Shown one piece after another: positions 10,828-56,783 of a stretch of DNA of 64,000 nt (position 1 is the stretch's first letter; each line of letters starts with the position of its first letter). This DNA is from a virus. A program made the position numbers and the translations under genes. Under the pieces are notes generated by a model. The model was given only the letters and a program-made list of their open reading frames with translations, searched no databases and was not told the origin of the DNA. The stretch covers positions 1 to 64,000 of IMG/VR virus record IMGVR_UViG_3300010401_000003; one strand, 5' to 3'.

Positions 10828-11433
10828 TCACGTGCTGCCGCGCACGGGCAAGAGCGCGCGGATCGGGTGCTGGGTCAAAACCGGCTGGGCGCGGCCCACG
10901 GTCGCAGGCAGCGGGCCGCGGAAGGCCGCGAGCTCGGCGTTGGTCGCCGCGTCGGGTGTCCACGCTCCGTTTGAATAGCGGTAGAAGCCGCAATCCATTT
11001 TCGAAAACGCGCGCGCGCTCGGGTCGGAGGTGAATTCCGATTTCGCGGCCGTCCAGGTCGAGACGGCTTGGTTTTCCACGTACCAGAGGTGATATCCCTT
11101 CGCTTGCTCGAAGGCGGTGAGCTCCTCGAAGGAAGCGCAAGCGGCCGCGGCAGGGGCGCTCTCTTTCTTCAACGCCCAGGCGACGCCGAAGACCACCACC
11201 GCGCCGATCGCGATCGCGAGGAGCGTGCCAGCCGGATCGGCATTCTCCAACATGGCTTCGTCGTCCTTGCCTTCGCGGCGCAGGGCCGCGCGGCGCTCGG
11301 CGGCGCTCATCTTGTGGTACCAGAGCGCGCCGCACACCGCGCCCGGGTTTCGCGCAGAGCGTGAAGCGCCGCGCACGCAATCGCGCATCCACTTCTTGGG
11401 CGGACGCCGCGGGTTTTCCTGTGCCGCAGTCAT
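10828..11433 (-). CDS. Single-pass membrane protein with basic ENP/RNP-motif N-terminus
   Basis: MTAAQENPRRPPKK..ARNPG..MLENADP, then TM LLAIAIGAVVVFGVAWAL; TGATG overlap with the upstream gene. Confidence 0.7.
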   Translation of the reverse strand: MTAAQENPRRPPKKWMRDCVRGASRSARNPGAVCGALWYHKMSAAERRAALRREGKDDEAMLENADPAGTLLAIAIGAVVVFGVAWALKKESAPAAAACASFEELTAFEQAKGYHLWYVENQAVSTWTAAKSEFTSDPSARAFSKMDCGFYRYSNGAWTPDAATNAELAAFRGPLPATVGRAQPVLTQHPIRALLPVRGST

Positions 11434-12011
11434 CACAGAATCTTTTCGACCAGCGCGTAAGACAATCCGCCGAGCGCCGTCGCTGTGCCGGTCGCGCCGG
11501 TCACGCGAAGCTTGACGGTTTGGCCCGCGCTTCCCGTCGTCACGAAGGTCTCCGCCGTCGGTTGCGGCTGCACGCTGTTGGTGTTCGTGACCGGAGTCAG
11601 ATACGCGCCGTGGCCCGCATGGATCGGCAGGTTGGTGATCGCGTCGACCCACTCGATGCCGAAATTGACGGTTTCTCCGCTGAAGGTCGAAAGCGCGAAG
11701 TGCGCGCTCAGTCGAAAGGTGCCGCTCGGGCCGAGGGTGAAGATCCCCGTCGCGGGGTTGTACGCTATGTCGCCGAAGCCGGCGTCGTCGAAGCGAATGT
11801 CGGTGTTGTTCGCGAGGAGCTGTCCCGGGCCGAGCGCGTTGTACTCGGTTTGCACGAAGTTGCCGCTCTGCGACGGATGCGACGACTGACCGGACGATCC
11901 ACCTTGCAGCGATTCGACCGCGTCGCTGATTTTCTGCGCCCAGTTTCCGGCCGGCGAGGAAAGCTGAAGTTGTCCGCCGACGGCTTTCAACGCGTCTCTG
12001 ATCAGGCCCAT
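11433..12011 (-). CDS. Putative spike/fibre head protein (QLQLxSP N-module + C1q/BclA-like beta domain)
   Basis: Full-length paralog of 33357..33977; IAYNPATGIFTL..TFRLSAHF..TVKLRV. Confidence 0.6.
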   Translation of the reverse strand: MGLIRDALKAVGGQLQLSSPAGNWAQKISDAVESLQGGSSGQSSHPSQSGNFVQTEYNALGPGQLLANNTDIRFDDAGFGDIAYNPATGIFTLGPSGTFRLSAHFALSTFSGETVNFGIEWVDAITNLPIHAGHGAYLTPVTNTNSVQPQPTAETFVTTGSAGQTVKLRVTGATGTATALGGLSYALVEKIL

Positions 12012-12015
12012 GTGC

Positions 12016-12300
12016 TCAACTCCCTTTCCAAAACCAGTACGCCAATCCTACCAGCACCGCGACCACTCCGATCGCCGCGGGCGATAGGCCCGCGCCCGAA
12101 GTCTTCGGGGAGGCCGAAGGGTTGGGCGATGGAGAAAGACCAGAGGCAGGGAGGGGGGAAGAGCCGGTCGTGCCCATGAAGTCGGGCGGAAGAATCACGC
12201 TCTTCGCACATTGTCCTACCGCAGCGAGATTGCCGGAGCTCGAGAGTACTCGCCGCCCCTGCCGCGGAACGATCGCTTGGATTGGGTGAAAACCCAACAT
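12016..12300 (-). CDS. Small C-terminally anchored membrane protein
   Basis: Ser/Pro linker, then AAIGVVAVLVGLAYWFWK. Confidence 0.6.
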   Translation of the reverse strand: MLGFHPIQAIVPRQGRRVLSSSGNLAAVGQCAKSVILPPDFMGTTGSSPLPASGLSPSPNPSASPKTSGAGLSPAAIGVVAVLVGLAYWFWKGS

Positions 12301-12301
12301 T

Positions 12302-13075
12302 TCAGCCTACGTAGCACGCCGAGTCGGGTGCTTTGGGGTCGATCGCGTTCCAGCGGGCGGCGAGCGTCGCGATGAGAGCTGCAGGCATGACTGCCTTGGC
12401 CTGGTAGATGTGATCGGCCGTGCCCATCGGTATGTCCCTGTTTTCAAAGCCGTAAATGATGAGACCGCCGCGGCGGCGCGGAGGCTTTGAGGGTGGGATT
12501 GGGTAGGCGACGGTGCGATCCGGCCCGGTCACCGGTCCGCCTTGCACGTGGACGCTGGTCGGGAGGATCGGCAAGACCGGCGCTTTGGGGTCTTCCGAGG
12601 GCGCCAGGCCGCCGCTCAGCGTTTTCCAGAGCCAATCCGCGGTTTCGGTCGTGCTCGCGTAAGTGGGTTTTACGGCCGAATGGGTGATGGTGAAGAGGCG
12701 CTCGTTGAGAAACGCGAGCTTGGCGAAGTTCAGCCAATTGGTCATCGCGGCGGGGGTGATGGGTTTTCCCGTGTGGATTCCATCGATTGCCACCGCCGCG
12801 TCCAAATGGCCGCCATCGCTCGAGGCCAAGAGCGAATGCACGCCTTGACACGAGGCAGAAAACCCCAGCGTCGCAATCCGCAGCGGCGTCACCCCGGGCG
12901 CGAATTTCGCGACGATCGCTCGTACCGGGGATGGCGAGGAATAGCTTGCGAGCGGTTGCCCCCAGCTCGCCGGATTCGGCAGCACCAGAAAACGCGTCGG
13001 CCGCTGAAACGCGGCCTTGGCCGCCTCGGGAAATCCAGAGTGCGCCCAGGCAATCACGATGTCCGCGTCGGCCAT
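12302..13075 (-). CDS. Putative alpha/beta-hydrolase-fold protein
   Basis: Nucleophile-elbow-like LGFSASCQG, AVAIDGIH, C-terminal ADHIYQ. Confidence 0.45.
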   Translation of the reverse strand: MADADIVIAWAHSGFPEAAKAAFQRPTRFLVLPNPASWGQPLASYSSPSPVRAIVAKFAPGVTPLRIATLGFSASCQGVHSLLASSDGGHLDAAVAIDGIHTGKPITPAAMTNWLNFAKLAFLNERLFTITHSAVKPTYASTTETADWLWKTLSGGLAPSEDPKAPVLPILPTSVHVQGGPVTGPDRTVAYPIPPSKPPRRRGGLIIYGFENRDIPMGTADHIYQAKAVMPAALIATLAARWNAIDPKAPDSACYVG

Positions 13076-13086
13076 CGAAGAGAAGG

Positions 13087-14928
13087 TTACCGCTTTTTCC
13101 GGCGGTTCGGAAGGCGGCGCCGGCGGCGCGGCGCGGGCGGCGGCGGCAATGGGTCCTTCGCGCGCTCGGCGCCGACCGCTAAAATTGCAATGAGCGCGAG
13201 CGCGAAGGCGCCCGCGGCCAGCCATTTCACCCAACGGAGGTCTTCGGCCGGCTTTTCTTCGGCGACCGGGATCGCGGCGAGCTCGCGGGTCACCACGGGT
13301 AATGCTGCTCGCAACGTCTCGGGCACCGGCAACGTCACCGCCGCCGGGATCTTCGGCACGCGCGCGAAGCGCTCGCGACTGAACGGATCCGCATAGCCGA
13401 ACGGGATCCGCTCGAGCGGATCGGCGTAGTGCCAGCGCCCGTCCGCCCAAACAGCGACCAGAATGCGCTCGTCGCGGATTTGATAGGTGTGCGCCACGAT
13501 CGCCGCATGAAGGCCCGCATCGATGTAGCCCGCGGCGAGCAAGCTCGAGAGTTGGAGGTCCGATCCGGGACTGCCGCGCACGGCGTCGAGGAGCTCCGCG
13601 GCGCGCTTGGTTTCGCTCTTCACTTTTCGCGCGTAGTAACGGCCCCACTCGAGGACATCGAGACGCTCTGCCTCGAGCGCGGACTTTTCAGCGATCGCGT
13701 CGACATCGGCAGCTGGCGCGGTTTCTCCATAGGTGTCGATCGGGGCGAAGTAGAACGATCCGCCTCCGGCGGCCGTCGAGCTCGACGACGGCGCGATCGG
13801 TTTTGGTTTGGTCGGTACGATCGGTTTCGGTTTGGGCGGCGTCGGAGGCGTCGGAGGCGTGAGACTGATGAGTGCGCCGGTTTGCGCAAAGGACGCGGAC
13901 AGTGTGCCGGCGATGTCTGTGCGGGTCGTCAGATCGCCGGATTGACCAAAGCTTGCGGCCGTTACAGCCGCGAACGCACCGACGCCCGCGAGCGTGGCCG
14001 ATTGAGAGAAGAGCGCGGCGGAGACGGCGACGAGCGGCGCCTCCGCAGTTAAATCGCCCGTTTCTCCGAAAAGCGCGGCCGACGTCGTCAGAAGCGCGCC
14101 GGCCGCGTCGAGTGCGCCACTCTCGCTAAAGGTCGCGGCGGTCAAAGTCAGAAGCGCGCCGGCGCCGCTGAGATCGCCGGATTCGAGGAAAGTCGCCGCG
14201 GCCTGTCCGAGAAGGGCGGTGTTCGAGAGAGAGGCGGTCTGATCGAAGATCGCGGCGGCGGACGCTAAGAGAGCGCCAGACGCTTCTAGAGTCGCTGATT
14301 GAGAGAAGAGCGCGGAGGAGAGGCTCGCGAGGTCGCCTGCGCCGGCGAGCGCGCCCGTTTGGCCGAACAAAGCCGAGGTGATGCCTGCGAATGGTCCCGT
14401 CCCGGTCAGCGACTCCGTTTGACCGAAGACGGCGGAGATCGAGCCGGCGAGGGCGCCCGCGGCCGTGAGATTGCCGGTCTGGGAAAAGGTGGCTGGGTTA
14501 TTTGCGGCGAGCGCGCCGGAGGCCGTGAGAGCGCCAGTCTGGTTAAACGCGGCGGGGGTCGTTCCTGCGAGTGCCCCGGAGCCGGTCAGATTTCCCGTTT
14601 GATTGAATGCGGCCGAGCTCGTCGCGGACAACGCGCCCGCTCCGGTCAAATTGCCGGTTTGCGCGAAAGTCGCGGCGTTGGTGGCGGCGAGGGCGCCGGT
14701 GCCGCTCAAAGATCCGGATTGGCCAAAGACCGCGTCGCTTACCGCTGCGAGCGCGCCGGCTCCGGCCAGGTTTCCGGTTTGGCCAAAGAGCGCATCGGAA
14801 GTCGCAGAGAGCGAGTTGTCTCCGGAAAGGGAAAGGCCCGTCGCCAGCGGATGAATGACGTTGGAAATCGCGATCGCGGTCCGCGATCCCGGCACCAGCG
14901 AAACTATCGGGCGAAACGCCGCAGGCAT
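13087..14928 (-). CDS. Membrane-anchored repeat fibre fused to an inactivated transglutaminase-like domain
   Basis: ~16 x 20-aa repeats, Pro/Lys hinge, domain aligning to 50177..50923 (DGRWHYADP), TM helix, Arg-rich tail. Confidence 0.75.
   Translation of the reverse strand: MPAAFRPIVSLVPGSRTAIAISNVIHPLATGLSLSGDNSLSATSDALFGQTGNLAGAGALAAVSDAVFGQSGSLSGTGALAATNAATFAQTGNLTGAGALSATSSAAFNQTGNLTGSGALAGTTPAAFNQTGALTASGALAANNPATFSQTGNLTAAGALAGSISAVFGQTESLTGTGPFAGITSALFGQTGALAGAGDLASLSSALFSQSATLEASGALLASAAAIFDQTASLSNTALLGQAAATFLESGDLSGAGALLTLTAATFSESGALDAAGALLTTSAALFGETGDLTAEAPLVAVSAALFSQSATLAGVGAFAAVTAASFGQSGDLTTRTDIAGTLSASFAQTGALISLTPPTPPTPPKPKPIVPTKPKPIAPSSSSTAAGGGSFYFAPIDTYGETAPAADVDAIAEKSALEAERLDVLEWGRYYARKVKSETKRAAELLDAVRGSPGSDLQLSSLLAAGYIDAGLHAAIVAHTYQIRDERILVAVWADGRWHYADPLERIPFGYADPFSRERFARVPKIPAAVTLPVPETLRAALPVVTRELAAIPVAEEKPAEDLRWVKWLAAGAFALALIAILAVGAERAKDPLPPPPAPRRRRRLPNRRKKR
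13860..14800 (-). repeat. Coding tandem repeat, ~16 copies of a 60-bp / 20-aa unit (xAxFxQTGxLxGxGALxAxx)
   Basis: e.g. SDALFGQTGNLAGAGALAAV, NAATFAQTGNLTGAGALSAT, TPAAFNQTGALTASGALAAN. Confidence 0.9.
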
Positions 14929-14943
14929 GGCCGCGTCAGCCTA

Positions 14944-15717
14944 TCAGTTGCGTGATGCGTACATCATCCACTGCGGAGTCAAGGTGTTCGAGGCGCTCGA
15001 GGTGCCCCAGATCACCGAGACACTCAAGCCCTGCGCGACCGTCTGATCGATGGTCGTCGGAATGAGGCCGCCAAAAACGCAGGTGGCCACCGTGGTCGCC
15101 GCAGCTGCGCCGGCACAGATCACAAATCCCGACCCGGTGATGGTCGCCGTGCTCGCGGCGACTCCAATTGAGCGGCAACCAAAGATTCCGGAGCCGTGGA
15201 AAGGCTGGGCTGTGAATGTGCCCAGCGTCATCGTCGGCCCAACGCCGAGGTCGACTCCGGTCGGCGGCGCGGCGTTATTCGTGCCGCAGCGGGCGCGAAA
15301 GCTGATCGCCGGTGTGCCGGTCGTCCCGTGCACGCCGCCGAAGTCGAGTTGCCAGGCACGGCCGCTTCGGATTTCGCCCACGGGGAGCGGCGCGAGAACG
15401 CCCGGATCCCAAAGGTTGGTTTCGGTGACCGTCGTGTTGATCGCTGCGCGGAGCGAAGCGGAAGGAAACTCGGTGTAGTCGCTCGAGGTGAAGCCCTGCT
15501 TCGAGCACAGCGCTTCGGAGAAGCGCTCTTCCTGCATACGAGCGAGGATTTTTTTGACCTGCTCCGGTGCGCGATCGAAGAGCCATGCGCGATGATACGG
15601 CCCGAACATCACGCCAGCGGCTTGCTCGCGCTCGATCGCCCAACGGGGATCGAACTCTCGAGTTATTTTTTCGAGGTCGATCCCGTGTTCGTGGCTGACT
15701 AGCTCGATGAGGCGCAT
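14944..15717 (-). CDS. Beta-rich putative virion structural protein
   Basis: Thr/Gly-rich alternating strands; lies in the fibre module. Confidence 0.55.
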   Translation of the reverse strand: MRLIELVSHEHGIDLEKITREFDPRWAIEREQAAGVMFGPYHRAWLFDRAPEQVKKILARMQEERFSEALCSKQGFTSSDYTEFPSASLRAAINTTVTETNLWDPGVLAPLPVGEIRSGRAWQLDFGGVHGTTGTPAISFRARCGTNNAAPPTGVDLGVGPTMTLGTFTAQPFHGSGIFGCRSIGVAASTATITGSGFVICAGAAAATTVATCVFGGLIPTTIDQTVAQGLSVSVIWGTSSASNTLTPQWMMYASRN

Positions 15718-15718
15718 G

Positions 15719-16167
15719 TCAATCCACGGTGCAAACGAGAGCACCGATCGCGAACGATGGGGTGATGCCGGGGTTTATGACGAGCGAGGCCGTCAGCGCG
15801 CCGTACCAGAGCATTTCACCCGCGCCGCTCGTGTCGCGGCCGACGTTGAAGTGCGTCATGGTCTGCGGGCCGCTTCCCGCCGACGCGTAGGTGATTGCGG
15901 CGACGTTTGCCGACTGCGTCGGGGCCGTGCCCGACACAGTCCAGCCGCCCGCCGAGCGCGCCACGGGCACGCGGGCGTAGTTGGTCCAGGTCGCTTCGTT
16001 GGTGAGCTGGGTGCCGGTTTCGCCCGGGTCGGCGGTTTGAAGCCCTATGAAGAACGATCCGGCCGTGGTGCTTCGCGGAGCCCCGTGGCATCGCCGAGGT
16101 TTGCCCAGTTGGTGTTGTTGAAGATCAACAACATCAGGTCGTTCTCGGCGGCGTTTCCTAAGCTCAT
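15719..16167 (-). pseudogene. Phage fibre-associated structural gene interrupted by a 1-nt frameshift near 16074
   Basis: MSLGNAAENDLMLLIFNNTNWANLGDATGLR continues in another frame as STTAGSFFIGLQTADPGETG..NEATWTNYARVPVAR; one added G restores ..LRGSTTAG.. Confidence 0.75.
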
Positions 16168-16702
16168 GATTTGGCTCCCAGGTCAGCTTCACGAACGAGC
16201 CTGTCGACTTCGGCCCAGAGATCCTTCCCATGTTTCTTCTGCCGGTAATGCACGTCGTCCGGATCTTCGCCACTGGCGGCGGGAGGGGTCGGCAACTGTG
16301 CATGGAGCGCCTCGAACACCTTGGTGCGCGTGGCGCGCACGAGCGCCTCTTCTAGCGGCAGGTCGCCATGGACGCGGCGATCGCGCTCGTGCTTCATGAT
16401 CTCGGCCTGATAGAGAGATTGGACGTCCGCCTCGGTGAGGGTGTGCTTCATTTGGGGTGCCTCTTCATTTCTCCGAGCACGAAGGCCGCAACGTCCTTCA
16501 TGTCGACTCGGCCGTCCTTGGTTTGGCACTTCTCCATGGCTTCGGTGAGAAGCCTCGAAAGCGCGTCGATCGCAGTCGTGTCTTCCACGATCTGGTCGAG
16601 ACGCTCGACCGCGGATTTGCCATACAACAGGCGCATCCGCTGGCGCAGACCCGGCGTCGGGCGGGCGACTCCGGAGAGCACGCCGTTGTCAACGACTTTC
16701 AT
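16164..16702 (-). CDS. Two small hypothetical genes (16448..16702 and 16164..16451)
   Basis: ATGA-coupled ORFs. Confidence 0.55.
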
Positions 16703-16759
16703 CGCCCCAAGAGTAGCCCCATTTCAGTCCGCGTAGCACGCGGTAATCGGGCTAACCGC

Positions 16760-17140
16760 TCAGCAGCGCTCGATTTTGAAGTCCATGACGATGCCGCCGG
16801 CAGTCGGCGCCGCGAAGGCTACCTGAAATCCAATGGTCGCCTTGGCGGGGATCGCGAATTGCTGCAAGTTGCCCCCGAGCATGGTGCCGATCACGATGTA
16901 GTTGGTGTCGGGTTGCACGCAGCCCTCGGGGAACGGCACGAACTGACTCACCTGTCCGTTGGCGATCGGAACGTGTAGGAGACAGCAGCCGCCCGCCGCG
17001 GGCGCGTCATCGCCACCCAGATTGCCGCCACCTAAGCCAGCGACCGCTTGAGCCAAACGCATGAGAGCTCGGCCTAGCGGCGATCCAAGCTGCACTTGGC
17101 TGCCCACATTTTTGACGATGTCTTCGATTGCTGTTGCCAT
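16760..17140 (-). CDS. Small structural protein with QLQLxSP N-module
   Basis: IEDIVKNVGSQVQLGSPLG; C-terminal QPDTNYIV..KATIGFQV resembles fibre beta-domains. Confidence 0.6.
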   Translation of the reverse strand: MATAIEDIVKNVGSQVQLGSPLGRALMRLAQAVAGLGGGNLGGDDAPAAGGCCLLHVPIANGQVSQFVPFPEGCVQPDTNYIVIGTMLGGNLQQFAIPAKATIGFQVAFAAPTAGGIVMDFKIERC

Positions 17141-17451
17141 GATTTGTCTCCCTTACTACTTCACCGGCACCGCGACGACCAGCGCGAGAGCGCCGTCCGG
17201 ATCGTCGTAGGCGAATTTTGGGGTGTCCGAGGGGTCTTCGGGATCTCGCGGCAACTCGCGGCGCGCGGCGTTCCAGCCGTCATCGGTGTAAGCGCGGCAC
17301 TCGCCGGTCGCGTCGATCAGATGCGTGTGAAGGCTTCCCCTGTAGCCGAGCTCGGCGGCCGCGGCATGCAGGATGTCACTCACGTCGTCGCCATCGAACA
17401 CGTTCGGGGGGTACGTTTTTCCAACGACTGTGATCGCGTAGGCCATGGGTT

Positions 17452-19119
17452 TCACCAGTATCCGTACATGTGGATAAAATCCATTTGGTTATTGGTGGCG
17501 CCCTTCGAGCTCTGCACGCAGGTCGGACGAAGGTTGGTGGTGTTGAGCGGCAGCGTCGCGGAAATGTCTGCGTCGTGCACGACGGTGTTGGTAGAACGAT
17601 TGATCAGCGTCGTGTGGATCTTGGTGTCATTGGGGAGCGCCCACATCTGCACCTCGAACACGCAGGGTCCGGCCGTGTTTGGGTCGCCGGTCACGAGCGA
17701 AGCTTTGGTGATGATTGCGGCCGACTTGGTGCTCCCACCGACGTTGTCAGTGCTGATGACGGTGATGTTGGCGTCTCCGGTGTCGGCTCCATAGACGACC
17801 CGGTTACCGCTCGCGCTCGGGTTGGCACCTCCGGCGATCACGGCGTTGTTGATGCCGATGGAAATGATCGAGTCGGTTTGGATGACCGCGACCGCGAAGC
17901 GGAAGCAAACGAAGAACCCACCCACTCCCGCGACGGCACCGCGGCACATGCCGGGGTCGGTGAAGTTTTGGCCGACGAGAATGTTGGCCGTCGAGGTCGT
18001 GGTGTTGTTGCGCGGGCTCGAGGTGCGGAGATCGGTGTTGGTCGGCGAAACGGTCGTCACGCCGGTCAGGGCGTTCGTGGTGAGACCGAGACTGTCTTGC
18101 AGACCGCCGTTGCTGCGCGGGATCACGTAACGAAAAGAACGCGACAGGACCGCGGTGCCCACTAACGCTTGAGGGATGCGAGCGAAAGAGGCGGTGGAAG
18201 CTCCTGCCTGGAGCGCCGCCGACACCTGCACGTCGTCGGCGTTGACGACGACGGAGCCATCGGCGTTTTGGCCGACGTCAAAGGTGCGATTGGCGGAGAG
18301 GTCGCCGCCGCCTGTCAGACCCGCTCCAGCTGTCAGCGTGCGCGCGGGTTGCACGCTGGTCGCTCCGAGCGCGGCTCCCGATTGGATCGCGGCGGACACC
18401 TGCACGTCGTTGGCGTTTACGACTACCGAGCCGTCAGCATTTTGGCCGACGTTGAAGGTGCGATCGGCGGAGAGGTCGCCGCCGCCCGTCAGGCCCGCGC
18501 CAGCCGTCAGCGTGCGCGTGTTCGGGACGGAGAAGGCTACGAGAGAGTCGAGTGCGGCCTTGTCGGCCGCGCTCATGAAGCCCGCGACGAGGTTGGTGGC
18601 TATTGCGTGGAGGGCGCCGCCAGAAAGGTTTCCGTGGTTTGCGTCAGCGATGACGCCCACACGGATGTCGTCCGCGCCGACGATGATCGTGCCGTCGGCG
18701 GCGACGATGTTAAACGTGCGATCTGCCGAGAGCTCGCCGCCGCCGGTCATGCCCGCGCCGGCCGTCAAGGTGCGTGTGACCGGAACGTACGGACCACCCG
18801 CGACCAGCGCATCGAGCTGTGCCTTGTCGAGGGCAGACATGAAGCCAGCGACCAGCGGCGTCGCCAGATCGTGGAGCGTGCCGCCCGGAAGATTTCCGTG
18901 CGCGTGGACGTGATCCGCGCGCGACGCAAAGAACGAGTTCCCTCCGGACCCGACGACCCCAACGGGCATCGCGGAGTTTCCGAACGGAGTCGCTCCGCCC
19001 GCAGCGATGATGCCCGCGTCGGCGAGACGCGAAATCAGTTGCATCCACACGCCGAGCGGCGACGACAGTTGGATCTGTCCGCTCGTGGCCTTCAGAACGT
19101 CTTCGACTAACCCGGACAT
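17452..19119 (-). CDS. Fibre/spike protein
   Basis: QLQLxSP N-module, ASRADHVHAH, 2x ATxLVAGFMSAxDK, 3x RTLTAGAGxTGGGxLSAxRTF fibre repeats, lectin-like C-terminal region. Confidence 0.8.
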   Translation of the reverse strand: MSGLVEDVLKATSGQIQLSSPLGVWMQLISRLADAGIIAAGGATPFGNSAMPVGVVGSGGNSFFASRADHVHAHGNLPGGTLHDLATPLVAGFMSALDKAQLDALVAGGPYVPVTRTLTAGAGMTGGGELSADRTFNIVAADGTIIVGADDIRVGVIADANHGNLSGGALHAIATNLVAGFMSAADKAALDSLVAFSVPNTRTLTAGAGLTGGGDLSADRTFNVGQNADGSVVVNANDVQVSAAIQSGAALGATSVQPARTLTAGAGLTGGGDLSANRTFDVGQNADGSVVVNADDVQVSAALQAGASTASFARIPQALVGTAVLSRSFRYVIPRSNGGLQDSLGLTTNALTGVTTVSPTNTDLRTSSPRNNTTTSTANILVGQNFTDPGMCRGAVAGVGGFFVCFRFAVAVIQTDSIISIGINNAVIAGGANPSASGNRVVYGADTGDANITVISTDNVGGSTKSAAIITKASLVTGDPNTAGPCVFEVQMWALPNDTKIHTTLINRSTNTVVHDADISATLPLNTTNLRPTCVQSSKGATNNQMDFIHMYGYW

Positions 19120-50176: not shown

Positions 50177-50923
50177 CTAGCCGGGACAGCGAGCAAGCGT
50201 GAGCGCTCTTTCGAGCGTCCGATCACCCGGCTTCCACACGACGCGAGCTCGGAGGCCGCGCAAGCCGTCAACGCCAATGAAAACGCCCTTGTCGACGAAG
50301 TTTAGCCGGTCGGGATCGAAGGACCTTCCGCCGCCCGCGCCGATGCACACTTCGTCGTCGCAAATCACCTTCACGTTTGGGACGGAGAGGATCCGCTCGT
50401 AGGTGAAGGGGACGCATTTGCCGAGCTGGTAGTCGGTCGACGGATCGCCGTAGTGCCAGCGGCCGTCCAAGTGCGCGGCGCACAGCACGTGCTCGATGTT
50501 GTGCTCGTCGTCGTACGCATGGCCCACCACCAAGGTGTGGATCCCGACGGACATCCAAGCCGCGCCGAGGAGCGTCGCGACGCCGTCGCAATCGTCGCCA
50601 CGAATGCAAACCTTGTTGGGGTTGGTCTTCGGATCGCACGCGAGCAAGGTCGCCGCCGGCATGTATTCGGCCCCGATTGGGTCGGGCACCCATAATTTCT
50701 TCTGGACGGCGGAAAGGAGAATGCGCGCGCGGTCGTTCGGGGTCTTGGCGCTCGAGAGGCCGCGTTCGCGGGCCACGTCGAGCATTTCGATCGCCCAAGT
50801 GCGCACGCCCGGATCGATCGCGCCCTTCGAGACGCGCTTGGCCACTTCGTCGAGCGAGCTATTGACGCCCGCTTTGCCGAATGGGTGCTCGCGTTCGGTT
50901 ACAGCAGTCCAAGGGGCGGGCAT
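50177..50923 (-). CDS. Transglutaminase-like cysteine protease
   Basis: Cys-His-Asp triad GDDCDG..EHVLC..WHYGDPS. Confidence 0.8.
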   Translation of the reverse strand: MPAPWTAVTEREHPFGKAGVNSSLDEVAKRVSKGAIDPGVRTWAIEMLDVARERGLSSAKTPNDRARILLSAVQKKLWVPDPIGAEYMPAATLLACDPKTNPNKVCIRGDDCDGVATLLGAAWMSVGIHTLVVGHAYDDEHNIEHVLCAAHLDGRWHYGDPSTDYQLGKCVPFTYERILSVPNVKVICDDEVCIGAGGGRSFDPDRLNFVDKGVFIGVDGLRGLRARVVWKPGDRTLERALTLARCPG

Positions 50924-51502: not shown

Positions 51503-51943
51503 TCAATGGAGATTCCTTTCGGGGTGGGCGAAGTCTATGTGTGCTGCGCACGCGGCGGAGCACACCGCTTCGTGGTCTTCGTTGACGTACCAGTCGTGCT
51601 GGAAGGACACCCATTTGTGATCTCCGAGCACGACCACTTCGGATTTCTCGCCGCAACAGGCGCAGGTCACCGGCATCAGGACGATGCCCTTTTCGCGCGC
51701 GCGCTTCTTCCAGTAGTTCAGGAGAGGTTGGGCGAGGAGACCGTGCAGCGGCCAGATCATCAACTGCACGAGCAGGCCGACCATCGACCACAAGAGCACC
51801 CAGGCGCGCGCGGTCGGCCAGCGGCGCATCTGATTTTTCACCACGCTCTTTACGCCGCGGCCCACGTCGGGATTGACGAGAAAAAGGAGCGCCTGGCCCG
51901 CAATCCCGCCCAGCCACAACCAGAAAAGCAACGACACGATCAC
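51503..51943 (-). CDS. Membrane protein with C-terminal Cys cluster
   Basis: Two TMs; CACCG..VCSAAC. Confidence 0.6.
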   Translation of the reverse strand: MIVSLLFWLWLGGIAGQALLFLVNPDVGRGVKSVVKNQMRRWPTARAWVLLWSMVGLLVQLMIWPLHGLLAQPLLNYWKKRAREKGIVLMPVTCACCGEKSEVVVLGDHKWVSFQHDWYVNEDHEAVCSAACAAHIDFAHPERNLH

Positions 51944-53835
51944 GCTCCGTCGGAAGGAGTGACCGGAGCGATGAAGTCGGGCGGAGGCGGAAGCGGCTCG
52001 GCCTTCTCGGGCTCGGGTGCAGGCGGCGGTGGCGGAGGCGGCGCCACGGGCGCGCTCACCATGACGTGGCCGGGCGGCGGCGTGTATTGCGTCTGCGTGT
52101 ATTGCGACGCCGGCACGAACGGAGGAGCGGGTGGAGGGGGAGGCGGCGGAGGTTGCGCCACGAACGGTGCCGGCGGCGGTGGCGGTGGCGTCACGAGCGG
52201 CGTCGCGGTGCCCATGCGCGCAGCTTCCGCTTTGATGACTTCGGATCGCGCGATGCGCTCTTGAGCCGTCGCCACGCGCTCGAGCACTTCGGCGCTCTTG
52301 ATCTGCGCTTCGGCCTTCAGCTTCGCGGCTTCGGCTTCGCGCGTGATGATGTCCATCTGATCTTTCTTCCGCTTGTCCATCATTTCGACGAATTCCTTGA
52401 CCGCGGCTTTGCCGAGGTCTTGGAACTTGTCGAAGTTCGAGGCGACGAAGGGACCGAAGCCCGTCACCATTTCGCCGTCGATCGCCGTTACGCGAAACGG
52501 CCCGACGTCGCGGACCTTGAGCGGGAAGTCATCGTCGGCGGCGGGATTTTCCCGGTGTTCCGGGGTTTCACTCTTTTCAGGGGCGAGCGCCTCGCGCGTC
52601 TTGCCCATGAGGTTCGAGAGCTCGAGCACCGATTGCACCGATTGTCGGGCCGCTTCCATCGGCGTCAGTTGCACCGGAGGCGGCGCCGGTTTTTCCACTG
52701 GCGCCGAGGCGGGCTGCTGGAGAGGGGACCAGGCCGAGCCGTTCCAGACGATCCATTGGCCGTTCCAGAATATCGGCTGACCAGGGGCGGGGCCGGCTTG
52801 CTGTTGCTGTTGGGGTTGCTCGCGGCGGGCGGCGGAGAGCTCGGCGACCAGGCGGTCGTTCATGGTGATGAGGGCGGCGATCGCGGCGTCGTTGGTCGGC
52901 GCCGCGGCCGGCGGCGGGGGAGGCGGCGGCTGGTGCTGCTGGTACTGCGGGCCGGCTACGCCGCTCGGTGGAGGCGGATACTGCGGACCAGGCGCGCCTT
53001 GGGGATACGCTGGCGGCGCACCATGCGCGGGCGGGTAGCCCGGAGGCGGATACGGCGCGGGAGCGGATTGAGGAGGAACGGCCCCCGGGGGATATCCATA
53101 ACGCGGATCGTACGCTTGCTGCGGAGGGTAGCCAGCGGGCGGGTAACCCTGCGGCGGATAGCCGCCTTGGGGCGGGTAGCCTTGCTGCGGCGGATAGCCG
53201 GGAGGAGCGCCGTAGCCGCCTTGCGGCGGGTAGCCTTGTTGCGGCGGGTAGCCGGGCGGGGGGTAGCCGTTTCCTCGCTGACTCATTTCTCGGTCCTCTT
53301 CCTGCCAACGCGGATCGTCGAGCATGTAGATCATGCCCGTTGCCCAACATGGCTCCGTCGAATCTCCGATGGTCCACTTGCAAGTGCACTTCTTGCCCTG
53401 CGTGTATTCCGCTACAAATCGCTGGAGGTCCCGCCACTCACGCAGCGATTCCACCGGCACCACGGGCAAGTGCGCGCGCGTCGGCTCCGTCATCATGATC
53501 GTGACGGACGAATTTGGATGGAGCATCACCGCTTGCTGGTAGCGGAGCGGGAAGTCGGCGTTTAGCTTGACGTTGCGATCGCCACGATGCTTCTGCGCGA
53601 CCTGGCCGCGATACTGCTGAGATATGACGGCGGCGGTGCGATCGAGCGGAATATTGAGCGCGTCTTCGGGCGAGACTTCGACTTCGTCTCCGATCGGCAT
53701 GCTGTGAGCGTCAACCGGGAAGCCGTTGACGACCGCCTTTGCCGAGTCTTGGAGATCCGGCGGCGGGGCGGGCGGGTGACGCACGCGCGCGTCGCCGTTG
53801 GTTCCGTTTTCGAGACGTTTTCGACGACTTGCCAT
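51940..53835 (-). CDS. Large Pro/Gly/Tyr/Gln-rich low-complexity protein with coiled coil
   Basis: GYPPQ repeats, poly-Pro tracts, charged helix. Confidence 0.75.
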   Translation of the reverse strand: MASRRKRLENGTNGDARVRHPPAPPPDLQDSAKAVVNGFPVDAHSMPIGDEVEVSPEDALNIPLDRTAAVISQQYRGQVAQKHRGDRNVKLNADFPLRYQQAVMLHPNSSVTIMMTEPTRAHLPVVPVESLREWRDLQRFVAEYTQGKKCTCKWTIGDSTEPCWATGMIYMLDDPRWQEEDREMSQRGNGYPPPGYPPQQGYPPQGGYGAPPGYPPQQGYPPQGGYPPQGYPPAGYPPQQAYDPRYGYPPGAVPPQSAPAPYPPPGYPPAHGAPPAYPQGAPGPQYPPPPSGVAGPQYQQHQPPPPPPPAAAPTNDAAIAALITMNDRLVAELSAARREQPQQQQQAGPAPGQPIFWNGQWIVWNGSAWSPLQQPASAPVEKPAPPPVQLTPMEAARQSVQSVLELSNLMGKTREALAPEKSETPEHRENPAADDDFPLKVRDVGPFRVTAIDGEMVTGFGPFVASNFDKFQDLGKAAVKEFVEMMDKRKKDQMDIITREAEAAKLKAEAQIKSAEVLERVATAQERIARSEVIKAEAARMGTATPLVTPPPPPPAPFVAQPPPPPPPPAPPFVPASQYTQTQYTPPPGHVMVSAPVAPPPPPPPAPEPEKAEPLPPPPDFIAPVTPSDGA

Positions 53836-54185: not shown

Positions 54186-54404
54186 TCACTCAGCTGCCTT
54201 TCCGTTTACCGGCGACTCTTTGACGAGTCGACCCTGCTTCACTTCGGCACGATGAAGCCTTGCAAGCGCGAGCGCAATCACCGCGCTTCGGTTGATGTCG
54301 TTGGAGTCGGCGAGCGACTCCAGATGGCGGAAGGATTTTGTATTCAAAAACACCACTACTCGAACACGATCCACCTGCCTGCGTTTGGCGGGGCGGGCGG
54401 CCAT
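54186..54404 (-). CDS. Ribbon-helix-helix DNA-binding protein
   Basis: RVVVFL..HLESLA..INRSAVIALAL. Confidence 0.6.
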   Translation of the reverse strand: MAARPAKRRQVDRVRVVVFLNTKSFRHLESLADSNDINRSAVIALALARLHRAEVKQGRLVKESPVNGKAAE

Positions 54405-54423
54405 TTTTCTAGGTGACCTCCAT

Positions 54424-55053
54424 TTACGCGGTCGGGGAAACGTTTGTGCCGTTGGGTTTGGCGGCCGCCGGCTCTTCGTCGTCTTCGTCGTCGTCGTCGT
54501 CGGCGGTCTCTTCGGCCTGCACGACTTCGATGAGCTCGACGAGCTCTTTGGCGAGAATGCGATCGACCTCGCAAAATTGCTTCAAACGCGGGAAGCGCTC
54601 GTCGACCCAAGAGTTGATCTGCTCGTCGAGATCCGGATCGGGGCCGGGCGGGATCAAATCCTGATTGAGCGTATTCATCATTTTCCCGAACATATCGATG
54701 GCGTCGTTGAAGCCTTGCGTACGGCAAAGGCGCGCCACGTTGTCGGCGGGGATCTCGTGCACTTGCGTCTCTTCGGGGCACGCGGGGCAGCCCGCGCGGT
54801 TAAGGGGCTGGCACTCAGGACACATGCCGGGGTTTTTGATGCCGTGCATGCCGGCGGCATCGCGCATCAGCACGTAGTAGCGCTCGGGGCGGATGGTCTT
54901 CGTCAAGCCGTGGAAGCTTTCGACGATTTCCGACTCGTAGCCGATCAGCCAGATGATGCCGCGGATGTTTTCTTTGCCCGTGTTGGGCCATTCTTCGTTG
55001 CAGGTGTAGACCGTGCCGTCCTTGCAAATCAGGCGGAAGTACTGTCGTTGCAT
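54424..55053 (-). CDS. Hypothetical protein with CxxC..CxxC and acidic tail
   Basis: CPEC..CPACP; DDDDDEDDEE. Confidence 0.6.
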   Translation of the reverse strand: MQRQYFRLICKDGTVYTCNEEWPNTGKENIRGIIWLIGYESEIVESFHGLTKTIRPERYYVLMRDAAGMHGIKNPGMCPECQPLNRAGCPACPEETQVHEIPADNVARLCRTQGFNDAIDMFGKMMNTLNQDLIPPGPDPDLDEQINSWVDERFPRLKQFCEVDRILAKELVELIEVVQAEETADDDDDEDDEEPAAAKPNGTNVSPTA

Positions 55054-55253
55054 CGATTACCGGCTCGCTTTCCCAGTGCACAAAATAGACACAAGCTCGG
55101 CGGGAGCGCCATAGGCCACAAAAAATCACGGCCACCTCGATCGCCCCGGCGGGTGGTGTTGTTTCCCTATATGGGAGACTCCGCCGAGCGCAACAGAAGT
55201 GGCCGAGACGAGAATCCGCGGTGAGCAGTCCTCGACGGCGAGGGTAGGCACTC

Positions 55254-56783
55254 TCACGCTGAAGCGCAAGTGGTGGAGAGTAGGTCGAAAAGAGTCGGGA
55301 TTGGTGGGCCGCGAGCTCGAGTCACGTCCGGCCGCGGTGGAGCGTGCGGGCGCAGGGAGTCGATCGCGCCACAAGCTCGGCACTCGCAGTGCTGTTTTAC
55401 CCAGAATTTTCGGCTAGCTGTGATGAGGCGCCCAGAATCGAGGCCGCAATAGACGGCGGAAAAAAGCCACGGGCTCATGAACACCGCGCCGTTTTTTCCC
55501 GACTCGATGTCTTTGGTCAGGTATTTGATGAGCTCGAGACCGAGGTCGAAGCCATCGACCGTGGCAGAATTCCCCCGCGGGGTCACGCGCTTGATGTGGA
55601 CCATCGGGTAGGGGAGCCTCTGCGGCTGGTAGCGCGCCCAGGTCAGCGCGACTTCGTCGTTTGCCGCCTGGAGCTCCGCGACCACGGCCTTCTTGTCCAT
55701 CCAAGCGTGCTCCGGCCAGTGCTCTTTCGGGAAGCCCGCTTTCATCAGAGCGCGGCCCCACATGGCGCGAATGATCTGCACGCGAAGGAATGGCGAAAGA
55801 AGCCAAATGTGGATATGCACGTGCCCGAGCTCGTCGCGGCCGGTGGTCGCTTCGATCACACGCACGAACGAAATCAGATCGAGACCGGGATGTACGTTGC
55901 CTTTTCTCTTGAAGCGATTGCGAAGCGAATTCCAAAATCGACTCCACGCGTTTCGCACAAGATAGGCTTGCGCGTCGGGCCCGCGAAGCACCTTCCATGA
56001 GACTGTGCCGTCGGGGTTTTCGATCTTCGCCATGATGGATTGCTCCATCGTCAAGTGCGGACAGGTGAGCGTGATGAAGCGCTCGACCAGCGGATCGGAT
56101 TTGACCTGACCGGGACCGAGGCGTGCGTCACGCACTCGTTGCAGGGCGTTTATGCGTGAGAGGGTGAAGCGCTTTCGGTTTTTCTTGATCTTGATTTGCC
56201 GGCAGTCGTGACAGAGCAGGATCGCTCCGCACATTTTTTTCAGCACTAGAGGATTGCCGGCAGCGTCGGCGCATTGGTTTTTGCAATGCACGCACTGCAA
56301 GATGCCGCGCTCTTCTTTGCCGCACTCAGCGACGCGCTTGAAGCGCTCCTCTTGGCCTTTCGCTCGATGGGCGTGCCAGCGGCTATCGATGCGGCGATCG
56401 CACTCTTCGAAGATTCGGGTGATGTAGTCGCTGGTGAGCTCGTTGACTTCGCGCAGCAAACGCGCGGCGCCGCGGGTGCGCTGACGGATCTGCGTGTCCC
56501 AGCGGCGGAGGATCTTTTTTATTTCGGGCGTGCCGCCCGGCAGCGCTCGCCGCTTGGCGAGAGGTCCGCAGCCGCGCTCGTCATCCAGGGCTTGGCGGAT
56601 GGTGTTCCGGACGAAGAGCGCCTCCTCGCTTCGCTGTTGACCCTTGTCGGAGATTCGGTCAGCGCGGTCTTTTCGGTGCGGGCGTGTGAAGCGCTCGGCG
56701 TCTGTTAGCCACCAATCGGGCTTTTGTTTGAGGCTCTTTGCGCGCGCGACCGGATTTGTGAGCGCAAAGACCGCGGCTTGCAT
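55254..56783 (-). CDS. rep: Rolling-circle replication initiator (HUH endonuclease)
   Basis: Motif I FITLTCPH, motif II GHVHIHIWL, motif III IKYLTKD; preceding Cys zinc-finger cluster. Confidence 0.88.
   Translation of the reverse strand: MQAAVFALTNPVARAKSLKQKPDWWLTDAERFTRPHRKDRADRISDKGQQRSEEALFVRNTIRQALDDERGCGPLAKRRALPGGTPEIKKILRRWDTQIRQRTRGAARLLREVNELTSDYITRIFEECDRRIDSRWHAHRAKGQEERFKRVAECGKEERGILQCVHCKNQCADAAGNPLVLKKMCGAILLCHDCRQIKIKKNRKRFTLSRINALQRVRDARLGPGQVKSDPLVERFITLTCPHLTMEQSIMAKIENPDGTVSWKVLRGPDAQAYLVRNAWSRFWNSLRNRFKRKGNVHPGLDLISFVRVIEATTGRDELGHVHIHIWLLSPFLRVQIIRAMWGRALMKAGFPKEHWPEHAWMDKKAVVAELQAANDEVALTWARYQPQRLPYPMVHIKRVTPRGNSATVDGFDLGLELIKYLTKDIESGKNGAVFMSPWLFSAVYCGLDSGRLITASRKFWVKQHCECRACGAIDSLRPHAPPRPDVTRARGPPIPTLFDLLSTTCASA

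What the first reader, a model, noticed from the sequence alone, without database searches (positions are those of the whole stretch)
10828..56783. Large tailless, membrane-containing virus candidate with rolling-circle Rep and no visible packaging ATPase
Seen: a ~40-kb co-oriented structural region containing fibres, lysins and more than 15 membrane proteins, with no terminase, portal, HK97 capsid, tape measure or Walker-A ATPase, plus an HUH Rep with motifs I-III. Known: RCR Reps occur in small tailless viruses (Corticoviridae PM2, Finnlakeviridae FLiP, some pleolipoviruses), which are far smaller than this window. Inference: 44394..45578, 43639..44352 and 42734..43624 are jelly-roll capsid proteins of an unusually large, possibly undescribed lineage that co-assembles around a condensed genome. 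Cys-rich lipoproteins and high GC suggest a myxobacterial host.
Basis: partly seen in the sequence, partly recalled or inferred. Interest (0 to 1): 0.88.

Follow-up and report, generated by a model that had tools for sequence, protein, structure and literature searches.

The report
Large tailless jelly-roll soil virus
This is most of a complete 73.5-kb circular genome of an uncultured soil bacterial virus that has no tailed-phage head, portal or DNA-packaging motor genes and probably builds a jelly-roll protein shell over a membrane and arginine-condensed DNA, a design known only from much smaller viruses.

Summary
The window is 64 kb of a 73,644-bp record that two assemblies close into the same ~73,521-bp circle, so no flank can hide missing genes. 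No credible gene has a Walker-A motif, and no terminase, portal, HK97 capsid or FtsK-type ATPase was detected by Pfam, PHROGs or six-frame searches.

The block 248-313-195-616-394-237-296 keeps its order in relatives: the trio is in 31 of 31 metagenome loci with enough flank, on contigs up to 149 kb. The 616-aa protein joins a protamine-like tail (about +64 net charge) to membrane helices. The 248-aa Cys-His-Asp protein matches virion protein gp34 of the membrane-containing phage SSIP-1, which does have a packaging ATPase.

Most likely this is a large tailless, membrane-containing virus assembled without a motor. The myxobacterial host and lipoprotein ideas are not supported; binning hints at Gemmatimonadota. 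The Rep is not family-wide. The scan has found this lineage before on other DNA. My literature searches found no description.

The parts
55254..56783 (-). 509-aa HUH rolling-circle Rep-like protein with no helicase domain
   Evidence: Motifs FITLTCP, HVHIHIW and YLTKD. PF23343 E 3.6e-4, below the cut-off. phrog_11698 E 2.3e-5. Of G001-G003, found only in G001 at 67% identity.
51940..53835 (-). 631-aa proline/glutamine-rich protein with a coiled-coil tail, at the head of the conserved block
   Evidence: No Pfam or PHROG family. Its 21 homologue clusters cover only about 30% of it. Present upstream of the block in 12 of 31 loci.
50177..50923 (-). 248-aa transglutaminase/cysteine-protease-like protein, homologue of SSIP-1 virion protein gp34
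   Evidence: tblastn to SSIP-1 gp34: 24% identity over 87%, E 5e-5. jackhmmer E 1.2e-24. C112, H145 and D160 are kept in 25, 26 and 26 of 27 sequences, gp34 included. A distant homologue has a weak Transglut_core match, E 8.6e-4.
49165..50157 (-). 330-aa membrane protein (three hydrophobic segments, the last C-terminal)
   Evidence: 46% identical in G002 and G003.
48130..49071 (-). 313-aa membrane protein of the conserved block
   Evidence: Present in 18 of 31 loci.
47543..48130 (-). 195-aa conserved protein with no known family
   Evidence: Present in 27 of 31 loci.
45681..47531 (-). 616-aa protein: about 200-aa Arg/Lys-rich N-terminal tail, hydrophobic helices, Cys cluster, Pro-rich end; candidate DNA condenser anchored in the virion membrane
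   Evidence: Sequence. No Pfam family, LysM included, at E<=5. 31 of 32 distinct homologues have net charge +34 to +177. Present in 27 of 31 loci.
44394..45578 (-). 394-aa major capsid protein candidate (jelly-roll-type beta-sandwich with insertions and a helical C-terminus)
43639..44352 (-). 237-aa conserved partner gene, fold unknown
   Evidence: Present in 31 of 31 loci between the 394 and 296 homologues. No Pfam family, PDB sequence match or profile link. The Atlas model is unusable, pLDDT 0.33.
42734..43624 (-). 296-aa second jelly-roll-type capsid candidate (second coat protein or vertex protein)
41523..42734 (-). Tail-anchored protein ending in a hydrophobic helix and an Arg-rich tail. 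The longest ORF runs to 43013; the likely start is the Met at 42734.
   Evidence: About 30% identical in G002 and G003 from residue ~141.
34216..41236 (-). Run of small, mostly C-terminally anchored proteins, with two paralogous lysin-like genes (35969-36766 and 37608-38300)
   Evidence: Hydrophobic segments. PG_binding_1 and a weak Glucosaminidase match. Conserved in G002 and G003.
32194..33977 (-). Fibre gene carrying the shared N-terminal module
   Evidence: Alignment A7. A partial match in G003.
21812..31615 (.). Glycosylation cluster: three paralogous glycosyltransferases (one fused, 1045 aa), sugar C-methyltransferase, two further methyltransferases, GDP-mannose 4,6-dehydratase
   Evidence: Pfam and PHROGs. 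Conserved in G002 and G003 and, in other forms, in G051.
11433..20780 (-). Four more fibre genes with the shared N-terminal module (11433-12011, 16760-17140, 17452-19119, 19122-20780) and a Gp80-domain protein (15719-16303)
   Evidence: Alignment A7. phrog_21962. PF23140 at 64 bits and phrog_240.
7573..8667 (+). Tyrosine integrase, outside the finding's range
   Evidence: phrog_1 E 2.1e-18. Pfam Phage_integrase among the 67 ORFs. 40% identical in G002.

Best explanation
The window is most of the complete ~73.5-kb circular dsDNA genome of an uncultured, probably temperate bacterial virus from soil. It belongs to an apparently undescribed lineage of large tailless, membrane-containing viruses.

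Shown:
- The genome closes into a circle.
- It has no detectable terminase, portal, HK97 capsid or P-loop ATPase.
- It has a conserved, collinear gene block 248-313-195-616-394-237-296.
- Two genes of that block fold as jelly-roll-type beta-sandwiches.
- One gene joins a protamine-like tail to membrane helices.
- One gene is homologous to a virion protein of SSIP-1.

Inferred:
- The 394-aa protein, with the 296-aa and perhaps the 237-aa protein, forms an icosahedral shell over a lipid vesicle studded with the many tail-anchored proteins.
- The DNA is not pumped into a preformed shell. It is condensed on the inner face of the membrane by the Arg-rich tail of the 616-aa protein, with help from the Arg-rich end of the 41523-42734 product, and is enclosed as the particle assembles.
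- The five fibres plug into one common socket through their shared N-terminal module.
- The virus's own glycosyltransferase cluster decorates virion proteins or the host surface.
- The Cys-His-Asp enzyme matures or cross-links virion proteins.
- The peptidoglycan-binding lysins serve entry or exit.
- This member replicates by an HUH Rep. Relatives use other replication modules.
For: Completeness.
- The record has a 123-bp exact terminal repeat.
- A second assembly of 73,663 bp has a 141-bp overlap, starts at position 31,450 of this record, and is 100% identical over 21,182 bp.

Absence of a motor.
- No credible Walker-A gene in six frames.
- Pfam on 87 ORFs gave no terminase, portal, capsid or ATPase.
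- Five hallmark Pfam families found 0 of 4 records, with positive controls.
- No homologue of the SSIP-1 ATPase gp40.
- In 80 related loci (884 kb), 17 of 1,385 ORFs match the Walker pattern. None is conserved in position.

Folds.
- Both models are confident.
- Foldseek and VIA lists are headed by jelly-roll capsid proteins of SPV1, HHIV-2, HCIV-1, PRD1/PR772, P23-77, STIV, FLiP and poxvirus D13.

Conservation.
- The trio is in 31 of 31 loci with at least 8 kb of upstream flank. The 195 and 616 homologues are in 27, the 248 in 26, all in the same order.
- The block is also found in G002, G003 and G051.

Other support.
- Arg-rich tail in 31 of 32 homologues of the 616-aa protein.
- SSIP-1 gp34 link with a conserved catalytic triad.
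- The capsid candidates have no hydrophobic anchor, apart from one flagged beta-strand segment in the 394-aa protein. This fits a shell assembled in the cytoplasm.
Against: - The same lists include non-capsid jelly-rolls: PHM, TNF/C1q-like heads, phage tail-fibre tips and head-decoration proteins.
- The three families show no profile relation to each other, to PDB sequences, or to SSIP-1 proteins other than gp34.
- The 237-aa fold is unknown.
- No particle, lipid, proteome or virome evidence exists.
- The membrane count rests on a crude hydropathy window.
- Only 2 of about 90 proteins were folded, so an unrecognised HK97-fold or portal protein is not strictly excluded.
- A 73.5-kb genome enclosed without a motor has no characterised precedent.
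Confidence: 0.6

Rival explanations
1. It is an enveloped or pleomorphic virus, like plasmaviruses or pleolipoviruses but far larger. Arg-condensed DNA is wrapped in a membrane vesicle without an icosahedral shell. The jelly-roll proteins are matrix, spike or receptor-binding parts rather than coat proteins.
For: - Many membrane proteins, no motor and an RCR-type Rep.
- Jelly-roll matches include TNF/C1q-like heads and tail-fibre tips at the same Z as capsid proteins.
Against: - The 394-, 237- and 296-aa proteins have no signal or anchor segment of the kind surface spikes need. The one flagged 19-residue stretch in the 394-aa protein lies in a long predicted beta-strand.
- Separate fibre genes already supply receptor binding.
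- The only cultured virus sharing a virion gene is icosahedral (passages).
Confidence: 0.15
2. It is a non-viral mobile element, a large RCR plasmid or integrative element. Its conserved block would build a glycosylated cell-surface or envelope structure, and IMG/VR would have misfiled it as a virus.
For: - No packaging machinery.
- Integrase and a Rep-like HUH protein, which could equally be a relaxase.
- A large glycosyltransferase cluster typical of envelope biosynthesis.
- It was binned with a bacterial MAG.
Against: - No Walker-A protein at all, so none of the ATPases that conjugation needs.
- Phage-type fibres with a shared adaptor module, plus Gp80 and tail-protein PHROG matches.
- Endonuclease VII, HNH and lysin genes.
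- A virion-protein homologue in SSIP-1.
- A protamine-like protein beside the jelly-roll genes makes little sense for a surface structure.
Confidence: 0.12
3. It is a very divergent tailed phage (podovirus-like). Its terminase, portal and HK97 coat protein would have escaped every profile, and the jelly-roll proteins would be head-decoration or fibre parts.
For: - A Gp80 head-fibre domain and PHROG 'tail protein' repeats.
- Jelly-roll cement and decoration proteins of tailed phages (KHP40, Pam1, GP4, HFTV1 turret) appear in the fold lists at similar Z.
Against: - A large terminase needs a P-loop, and none exists in the closed genome.
- 0 of 4 records match TerL_ATPase, Terminase_6N, Phage_capsid or Phage_portal, while the controls ring.
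- No tape measure or baseplate.
- The most conserved, most codon-biased genes are the jelly-roll trio.
Confidence: 0.05
4. It is a dependent element. It makes its own shell but borrows a packaging ATPase from the host (for example FtsK) or from a helper replicon.
For: - Absence of any ATPase in a complete genome.
- The cultured SSIP-1 does carry a Walker-A protein, gp40, in the equivalent module.
Against: - The absence is family-wide around the capsid block.
- The conserved Arg-rich membrane protein offers a motor-free alternative.
- ATPase-less jelly-roll viruses are known (passages of PMC8812541).
Confidence: 0.08

Closest known systems
[quoted passage not shown]
   Same: - Circular dsDNA.
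- It is the only record among 50,697 phage records with a hit to any of the four proteins I searched (394, 296, 248, Rep): its virion structural protein gp34 matches the 248-aa protein, with the Cys-His-Asp triad kept.
- Passages describe it as tailless and internal-membrane-containing, about 100 nm, T=49, 44 kb, with two coat-protein types that are possibly single jelly-rolls.
- Its structural module also has many small membrane proteins.
   Different: - SSIP-1 gp40 has a clear Walker-A motif. This genome has no homologue of it.
- SSIP-1 has no Arg-rich protein: the maximum net charge in any 60-residue window is +13.
- No detectable homology for the capsid trio.
- Its genome is 43.8 kb against 73.5 kb here.
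- The original SSIP-1 paper was not held, so I do not know which gps are its coat proteins.
Portogloboviridae: Sulfolobus polyhedral virus 1 (SPV1; PDB 6oj0)
   Same: - Best Foldseek PDB match of the 394-aa model (E 1.9e-3).
- It lacks a packaging ATPase (passage of PMC8812541).
- That it has a membrane and a protein-condensed genome is my recollection, not from a call.
   Different: - Archaeal host and a genome of about 20 kb (both recalled).
- No sequence relation.
- The condensing protein here is membrane-anchored and far larger.
- The bacterial signs here are the peptidoglycan-binding lysin and the MAG bin.
Vertical single-jelly-roll viruses with two coat proteins (P23-77 VP16/VP17, HHIV-2, HCIV-1, SH1)
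   Same: - Adjacent genes for two different jelly-roll-type proteins.
- Internal-membrane design, which is inferred here.
   Different: - Those viruses are 16-30 kb (passages listed). Per PMC8812541, they encode an FtsK-HerA ATPase.
- None is found here.
Double jelly-roll viruses (PRD1 P3, PR772, poxvirus D13, FLiP)
   Same: - P3's solved chains are 367-392 residues, against 394 aa here.
- FLiP has an RCR Rep and no ATPase (passages).
   Different: - About 13 strands are predicted rather than 16.
- The genome is 5-8 times larger.
Adenovirus core proteins / protamine-like DNA condensers
   Same: Long Arg/Lys-rich, low-complexity region with net charge about +64, next to the coat genes.
   Different: Here the basic region is fused to membrane helices and an outer Cys-rich domain. 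There is no sequence relation.

Membership tests
Caudoviricetes (tailed phages) | Large terminase with a P-loop ATPase | tested here: not met
   No credible Walker-A gene in six frames of the closed genome. PF03354 and PF03237 found 0 of 4 records, controls positive. No terminase family among 87 ORFs in Pfam.
Caudoviricetes (tailed phages) | HK97-fold major capsid protein | tested here: inconclusive
   PF05065 found 0 of 4 records. No capsid family in Pfam. The two folded candidates are beta-sandwiches, not HK97. Only 2 of about 90 proteins were folded.
Caudoviricetes (tailed phages) | Portal protein and tail (tape measure, baseplate) | tested here: inconclusive
   PF04860 found 0 of 4 records. 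The only 'tail' hits are fibre repeats and a Gp80 head-fibre domain. The 1045-aa ORF is a glycosyltransferase. Other portal families were not searched one by one.
Double jelly-roll viruses (PRD1-like, Bamfordvirae) | [quoted passage not shown] | tested here: inconclusive
   [not shown]
Double jelly-roll viruses (PRD1-like, Bamfordvirae) | FtsK-HerA-type packaging ATPase (most members) | tested here: not met
   PF01580 found 0 of 4 records at E<=1, control 14 of 14. No Walker A.
Two-coat-protein single jelly-roll viruses (P23-77, HHIV-2 type) | Two adjacent vertical single-jelly-roll coat genes | tested here: inconclusive
   [not shown]
Two-coat-protein single jelly-roll viruses (P23-77, HHIV-2 type) | FtsK-HerA-type packaging ATPase beside the coat genes | tested here: not met
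Portogloboviridae (SPV1-like) | Single jelly-roll coat protein, no packaging ATPase, protein-condensed genome inside a membrane | tested here: inconclusive
   [not shown]
SSIP-1-like phages | Shared virion genes | tested here: inconclusive
   One shared gene (gp34 and the 248-aa protein). The gp40 ATPase has no homologue here. The coat trio has no detectable SSIP-1 homologue.
HUH rolling-circle Rep superfamily | Motif I (FxTLT-like), motif II (HUH), motif III (YxxK) | tested here: met
   FITLTCP at about residue 236, HVHIHIW at about 321, YLTKD at about 421. HMM support is weak: PF23343 at 21.2 bits against a 27.8 cut-off, phrog_11698 E 2.3e-5. No PDB or phage homologue. What the motifs should look like is from my own knowledge.

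The most novel reading that the evidence does not exclude
This is a member of a widespread, undescribed high-rank lineage of large bacterial viruses. MCP-bearing contigs seen here run from 73 to 149 kb, and earlier notes of this scan mention up to 171 kb. These viruses dispense with any NTP-driven packaging motor. A membrane-anchored protamine-like protein condenses the genome on a vesicle, and a shell of sequence-orphan jelly-roll proteins then closes around it. The virus would carry its own glycosylation machinery for the particle, as giant eukaryotic viruses do. That would extend motor-free co-assembly to genomes several times larger than any known case and would add a new branch near the root of the jelly-roll virus kingdoms.
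Probability: 0.35. Interest if true: 0.9.

Novelty: new variant of a known kind. Interest (0 to 1): 0.8.

Why it matters
Tailless, membrane-containing bacterial viruses are known from a few small-genome families; the literature passages I read list 9-44 kb. A motor-free lineage of 73-149 kb, common in soil, would have three consequences.
- It would enlarge the size range of that architecture several-fold.
- It would show that large dsDNA genomes can be enclosed without a terminase or an FtsK-type pump.
- It would give a testable model for how jelly-roll viruses assembled before they acquired packaging ATPases, the scenario proposed for SPV1 and FLiP in PMC8812541.

There is also a practical point. 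Such genomes carry none of the hallmark genes that virus-detection pipelines and taxonomies rely on.

Tried and rejected
Sequence and profile searches that found nothing useful:
- Profiles of the 394, 296 and 237 families against PDB sequences found nothing, or only chance rows.
- hhalign between the three families found nothing.
- hmmsearch and hhalign of the three family alignments against SSIP-1 proteins found nothing significant (best E 0.0021, A8 vs gp47, in a 33-protein set; no hhalign hit at >=5% probability).
- tblastn of the 394-aa, 296-aa and Rep proteins against 50,697 phage records gave no match.
- Rep against PDB gave a chance hit only.
- PHROGs on 105 distant relatives of the 394-aa protein gave 1 phrog_280 'virion structural protein' (E 1.9e-5) and 1 phrog_2098. 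That is too thin to use.
- Permissive Pfam (E<=5) on ten core proteins gave no LysM and no Transglut_core for this genome's own proteins.

Structure tools that did not help:
- The Protein Atlas on the 237-aa protein: the stored model is unusable (pLDDT 0.33) and the hits are at chance level.
- Complex prediction with 394+296+237 (partner 237) returned no verdict, score 0.00. This is no evidence either way.
- PM2 P2 did not appear in the 50 rows shown of any fold list. This says nothing about relatedness.

Other attempts:
- Sequencing runs: no RNA holder is listed. Apart from one possible source run, one further soil-metagenome run holds 0.93 of the sampled words.
- The lipobox scan argues against the lipoprotein idea.
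- ARAGORN found no tRNA.
- I considered the 1045-aa ORF as a tape measure and rejected it, because it is a glycosyltransferase.

Literature:
- Searches listed no paper describing such a lineage.
- I read only passages of PMC8812541, PMC6356626, PMC6260650, PMC4958249 and PMC5332951.
- The SSIP-1 paper PMC3344969 is not held.
- Supplements are closed. The supplementary lists of Yutin et al. 2018 (PMC5894146, seen only in search listings) could bear on the novelty claim.

Full report
WHAT THE WINDOW IS

The window is bases 1-64000 of a single 73,644-bp virus record. IMG/VR classes it as having direct terminal repeats, and CheckV rates it 100% complete.

The two ends share an exact 123-bp repeat. 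A second public assembly of the same sequence sits in a MAG titled Gemmatimonadaceae bacterium. That contig is 73,663 bp long, has a 141-bp end overlap, and begins at position 31,450 of this record. It is 100% identical over the 21,182 bp fetched. Two assemblies broken at different points but closing to the same ~73,521-73,522 bp mean the map is a circle.

GC content is 60-67.5%. There are no tRNA genes.

CHECKING THE OBSERVATION

I called genes by ORF length and third-position GC. From 10.8 to 56.8 kb nearly all credible genes are on the minus strand. The exception is three plus-strand sugar genes at 21812-24433.

I scanned 87 ORFs against Pfam and PHROGs. One search printed only 25 of its 57 families.

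Recognisable genes:
- Three paralogous glycosyltransferases, one of them a 1045-aa fusion.
- A sugar C-methyltransferase, two other methyltransferases and GDP-mannose 4,6-dehydratase.
- A C5 DNA methylase, RadC, endonuclease VII, HNH endonucleases, NUDIX and DUF3560.
- A tyrosine integrase at 7573-8667 on the plus strand.
- A peptidoglycan-binding lysin-like protein at 35969-36766.
- A Gp80 head-fibre domain at 15719-16303.
- Fibre repeats in 17452-19119.

No terminase, portal, capsid, tape-measure or ATPase family appeared. Six-frame searches of this record and three relatives used FtsK_SpoIIIE, TerL_ATPase, Terminase_6N, Phage_capsid and Phage_portal. Each found 0 of 4 records at E<=1, while each family rang in control genomes. 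A six-frame scan for Walker-A-like patterns hit only non-coding frames or chance contexts. Outside the window, in 64-73.6 kb, the largest ORF is 301 aa, a NUDIX protein.

The Rep-like 509-aa protein has the three HUH motifs and weak HMM support. Five fibre genes share an N-terminal module. Two caveats apply: the membrane-protein count rests on a crude hydropathy window (22 of 52 ORFs flagged, some falsely), and about 12 kb of the 'structural' block is a glycosylation cluster.

THE CAPSID CANDIDATES

The 394-aa protein.
- It has 23 homologue clusters at 90% identity, all unnamed and without Pfam domains. A profile search found 147 clusters at 50% identity.
- With alignment A2, AlphaFold2 gave pLDDT 77.3 and pTM 0.75. 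The model has about 13 strands and a helical C-terminus.
- The Foldseek PDB list is headed by SPV1 (E 1.9e-3). PRD1 P3 follows, with PR772 and the STIV MCP further down the list.
- In BFVD the best match is an unnamed entry at E 3.2e-4. The list also holds tectivirus coat proteins (Wip1, GC1), a poxvirus D13-like protein and an asfarvirus-like MCP.
  - a cellular jelly-roll, PHM: 6.3
  - HHIV-2: 6.2
  - SPV1: 5.8 over 152 residues
  - HCIV-1: 5.7
  - Orf virus D13-like scaffolding protein (Orfv075): 5.5
  - PRD1 P3: 5.5
  - VP17: 5.0
  - VP16: 4.8
  - FLiP: 4.7

The 296-aa protein.
- It has 41 clusters. The model has pLDDT 79.5 and pTM 0.80.
- Foldseek gave E 6e-3 or worse.

How to read these scores.
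- The lists also hold non-capsid jelly-rolls: TNF/C1q-like heads, tail-fibre tips and head cement proteins.
- My reading: both proteins are jelly-roll-type sandwiches with insertions, and a capsid role is the best guess. A double jelly-roll is not shown.

It has no detectable relative in any known family.

FAMILY AND SYNTENY

Relatives found:
- IMG/VR holds three: G001 (77.6 kb, 99% identical in the 394-aa protein), G002 (97.1 kb) and G003 (42.0 kb).
- A sample of 401 genomes of the MAG's phylum gave 2 with a match. One is the same virus contig. The other, G051:C20 (54.6 kb), is a distant member.
- A metagenome scan with the 296-aa family found 102 relatives and returned 80 loci. Contigs of 73-85 kb are frequent, and the largest are 119,384 and 148,729 bp.

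Conservation of the block (jackhmmer). I counted the 31 loci with at least 8 kb upstream of the 296 homologue:
- 394, 237 and 296: 31 of 31
- 195 and 616: 27 of 31 each
- 248: 26 of 31
- 313: 18 of 31
- 631: 12 of 31

The order and strand are always the same. Two pairs of these loci (L023/L024 and L025/L026) are near-duplicates, so the independent count is a little lower.

Beyond the block, G002 and G003 also share the glycosyltransferase trio, the dehydratase, the C-methyltransferase, the fibres, the lysin paralogues and the integrase.

The replication genes are not shared:
- The Rep is found only in G001, at 67% identity with one in-frame TGA.
- G002 has two P-loop ORFs outside the block. 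I did not scan them against families.
- G051 has a D5_N primase-helicase, a ResIII helicase, a PD-(D/E)XK nuclease and AAA_24.

Around the capsid block in the 80 loci (884,428 bp), 17 of 1,385 ORFs match the Walker pattern. None recurs in a fixed position. One is a Rossmann-type motif, and one at a contig edge might be genuine.

THE PROTAMINE-LIKE MEMBRANE PROTEIN AND THE SSIP-1 LINK

The 616-aa protein has about 200 N-terminal residues of Arg/Lys-rich low complexity. These are followed by hydrophobic helices, a Cys cluster and a Pro-rich end. Among 32 distinct homologues, 31 carry net charge +34 to +177. I counted charge before the first hydrophobic segment, or over the whole protein where my filter found no such segment. 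The one exception is a truncated ORF at a contig edge. The gene after the trio (41523-42734) ends in a hydrophobic helix followed by an Arg-rich tail.

The 248-aa protein is the only core protein with a match among cultured phages. It matches SSIP-1 gp34, annotated as a structural protein, with jackhmmer E 1.2e-24 in my small database. Its Cys-His-Asp triad is kept in 25-26 of 27 sequences, gp34 included. A distant homologue reaches Transglut_core at E 8.6e-4.

Passages describe SSIP-1 as a tailless icosahedral phage with an internal membrane, about 100 nm, T=49, 44 kb circular dsDNA, two coat-protein types and no family assignment. Unlike this genome, SSIP-1 encodes a Walker-A structural protein, gp40, and has no Arg-rich protein. 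gp40 has no homologue here or in the 80 loci.

HOW IT MOST LIKELY WORKS

Shown: the closed circle, the missing motor and tailed-phage hallmarks, the conserved block, two jelly-roll-type folds, the basic membrane protein and the SSIP-1 virion-gene link.

Inferred:
- The 394-aa protein is the main coat protein. It has the highest codon bias in the window and no anchor. The 296-aa and 237-aa proteins are its partners.
- The shell forms on a vesicle that carries the tail-anchored proteins.
- The DNA is condensed by the basic tails on the inner face of the membrane and is enclosed during assembly, as proposed for SPV1.
- The fibres share one socket through their common N-terminus.
- The glycosylation cluster modifies the particle or the host surface.
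- The integrase allows lysogeny.

I put this at 0.60. The rivals are an enveloped, shell-less virus (0.15), a non-viral element (0.12), dependence on a borrowed ATPase (0.08) and a divergent tailed phage (0.05).

HOST AND HABITAT

The only host hints are the MAG bin title and a distant relative in another MAG of the same phylum. Binning can misplace viral contigs, so this is weak. The peptidoglycan-binding lysin fits a bacterial host. Nothing supports Myxococcota. One run labelled soil metagenome, other than a possible source run, holds 0.93 of the sampled words.

NOVELTY

None of my six literature searches listed a description of such a lineage. I read passages only. The SSIP-1 paper was not held, and supplements are closed.

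Earlier notes of this scan describe the same virus on another record and relatives of 64-171 kb, with the same reading (jelly-roll trio, SSIP-1 and SPV1 as closest known). I reached the SPV1 and SSIP-1 links before reading those notes. They agree with my reading but are not independent evidence.

I class the finding as a new variant of a known kind: tailless, membrane-containing jelly-roll viruses, including the ATPase-less SPV1 and FLiP.

Noticed in passing
window 21812-31615: A ~10-kb glycosylation cluster sits inside the virion module. It holds three paralogous GT-B-like glycosyltransferases (one fused to further GT domains, 1045 aa), GDP-mannose 4,6-dehydratase, a sugar C-methyltransferase, and FkbM-type and other methyltransferases. 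It is conserved in G002 and G003 and, in other forms, in G051. This is unusual for a bacterial virus and recalls the virus-encoded capsid glycosylation of giant viruses (recalled).
   Followed up: partly
window 34216-50157: Several tail-anchored proteins begin with a similar short motif: a W, then LG a few residues later (for example MSMRWLEEKVQVLGA, MGMRWLEKKVDFLGA, MSKLLWLGEVRVLGA, MALVKWIDP). Other first-stage notes flag this as a possible leader. I did not test it.
   Followed up: no
L007 (G001:C1:42162-43667, minus strand): The Rep homologue of the closest relative (67% identity) contains one in-frame TGA. This could be a broken gene, a sequencing error or read-through.
   Followed up: no
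G002:C1:9585-12383 and 24451-26322; L018/L020 (G051:C20): The replication modules differ between relatives. G051 has a D5_N primase-helicase, a ResIII helicase, a PD-(D/E)XK nuclease and AAA_24. G002 has two large P-loop ORFs. This genome has an HUH Rep and no P-loop protein at all.
   Followed up: partly
window 44394-45578: Many cysteines of the 394-aa protein are invariant among closer relatives (C76, C131, C277, C278, C321 and C338 in alignment A3). This suggests disulfide or metal stabilisation of the particle.
   Followed up: no
window 51940-53835: The 631-aa protein has a long run of GYPPQ-like repeats and poly-proline stretches between two ordinary domains. Its weakest homologue hit (E 7e-4) is a stomatin/prohibitin-family protein, which is too weak to use.
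   Followed up: no
L103 (SSIP-1 JN880423.1) 24775-25737: SSIP-1 gp40, annotated only as 'structural protein', carries a clear Walker-A motif. It is the likely packaging ATPase of that phage.
   Followed up: partly
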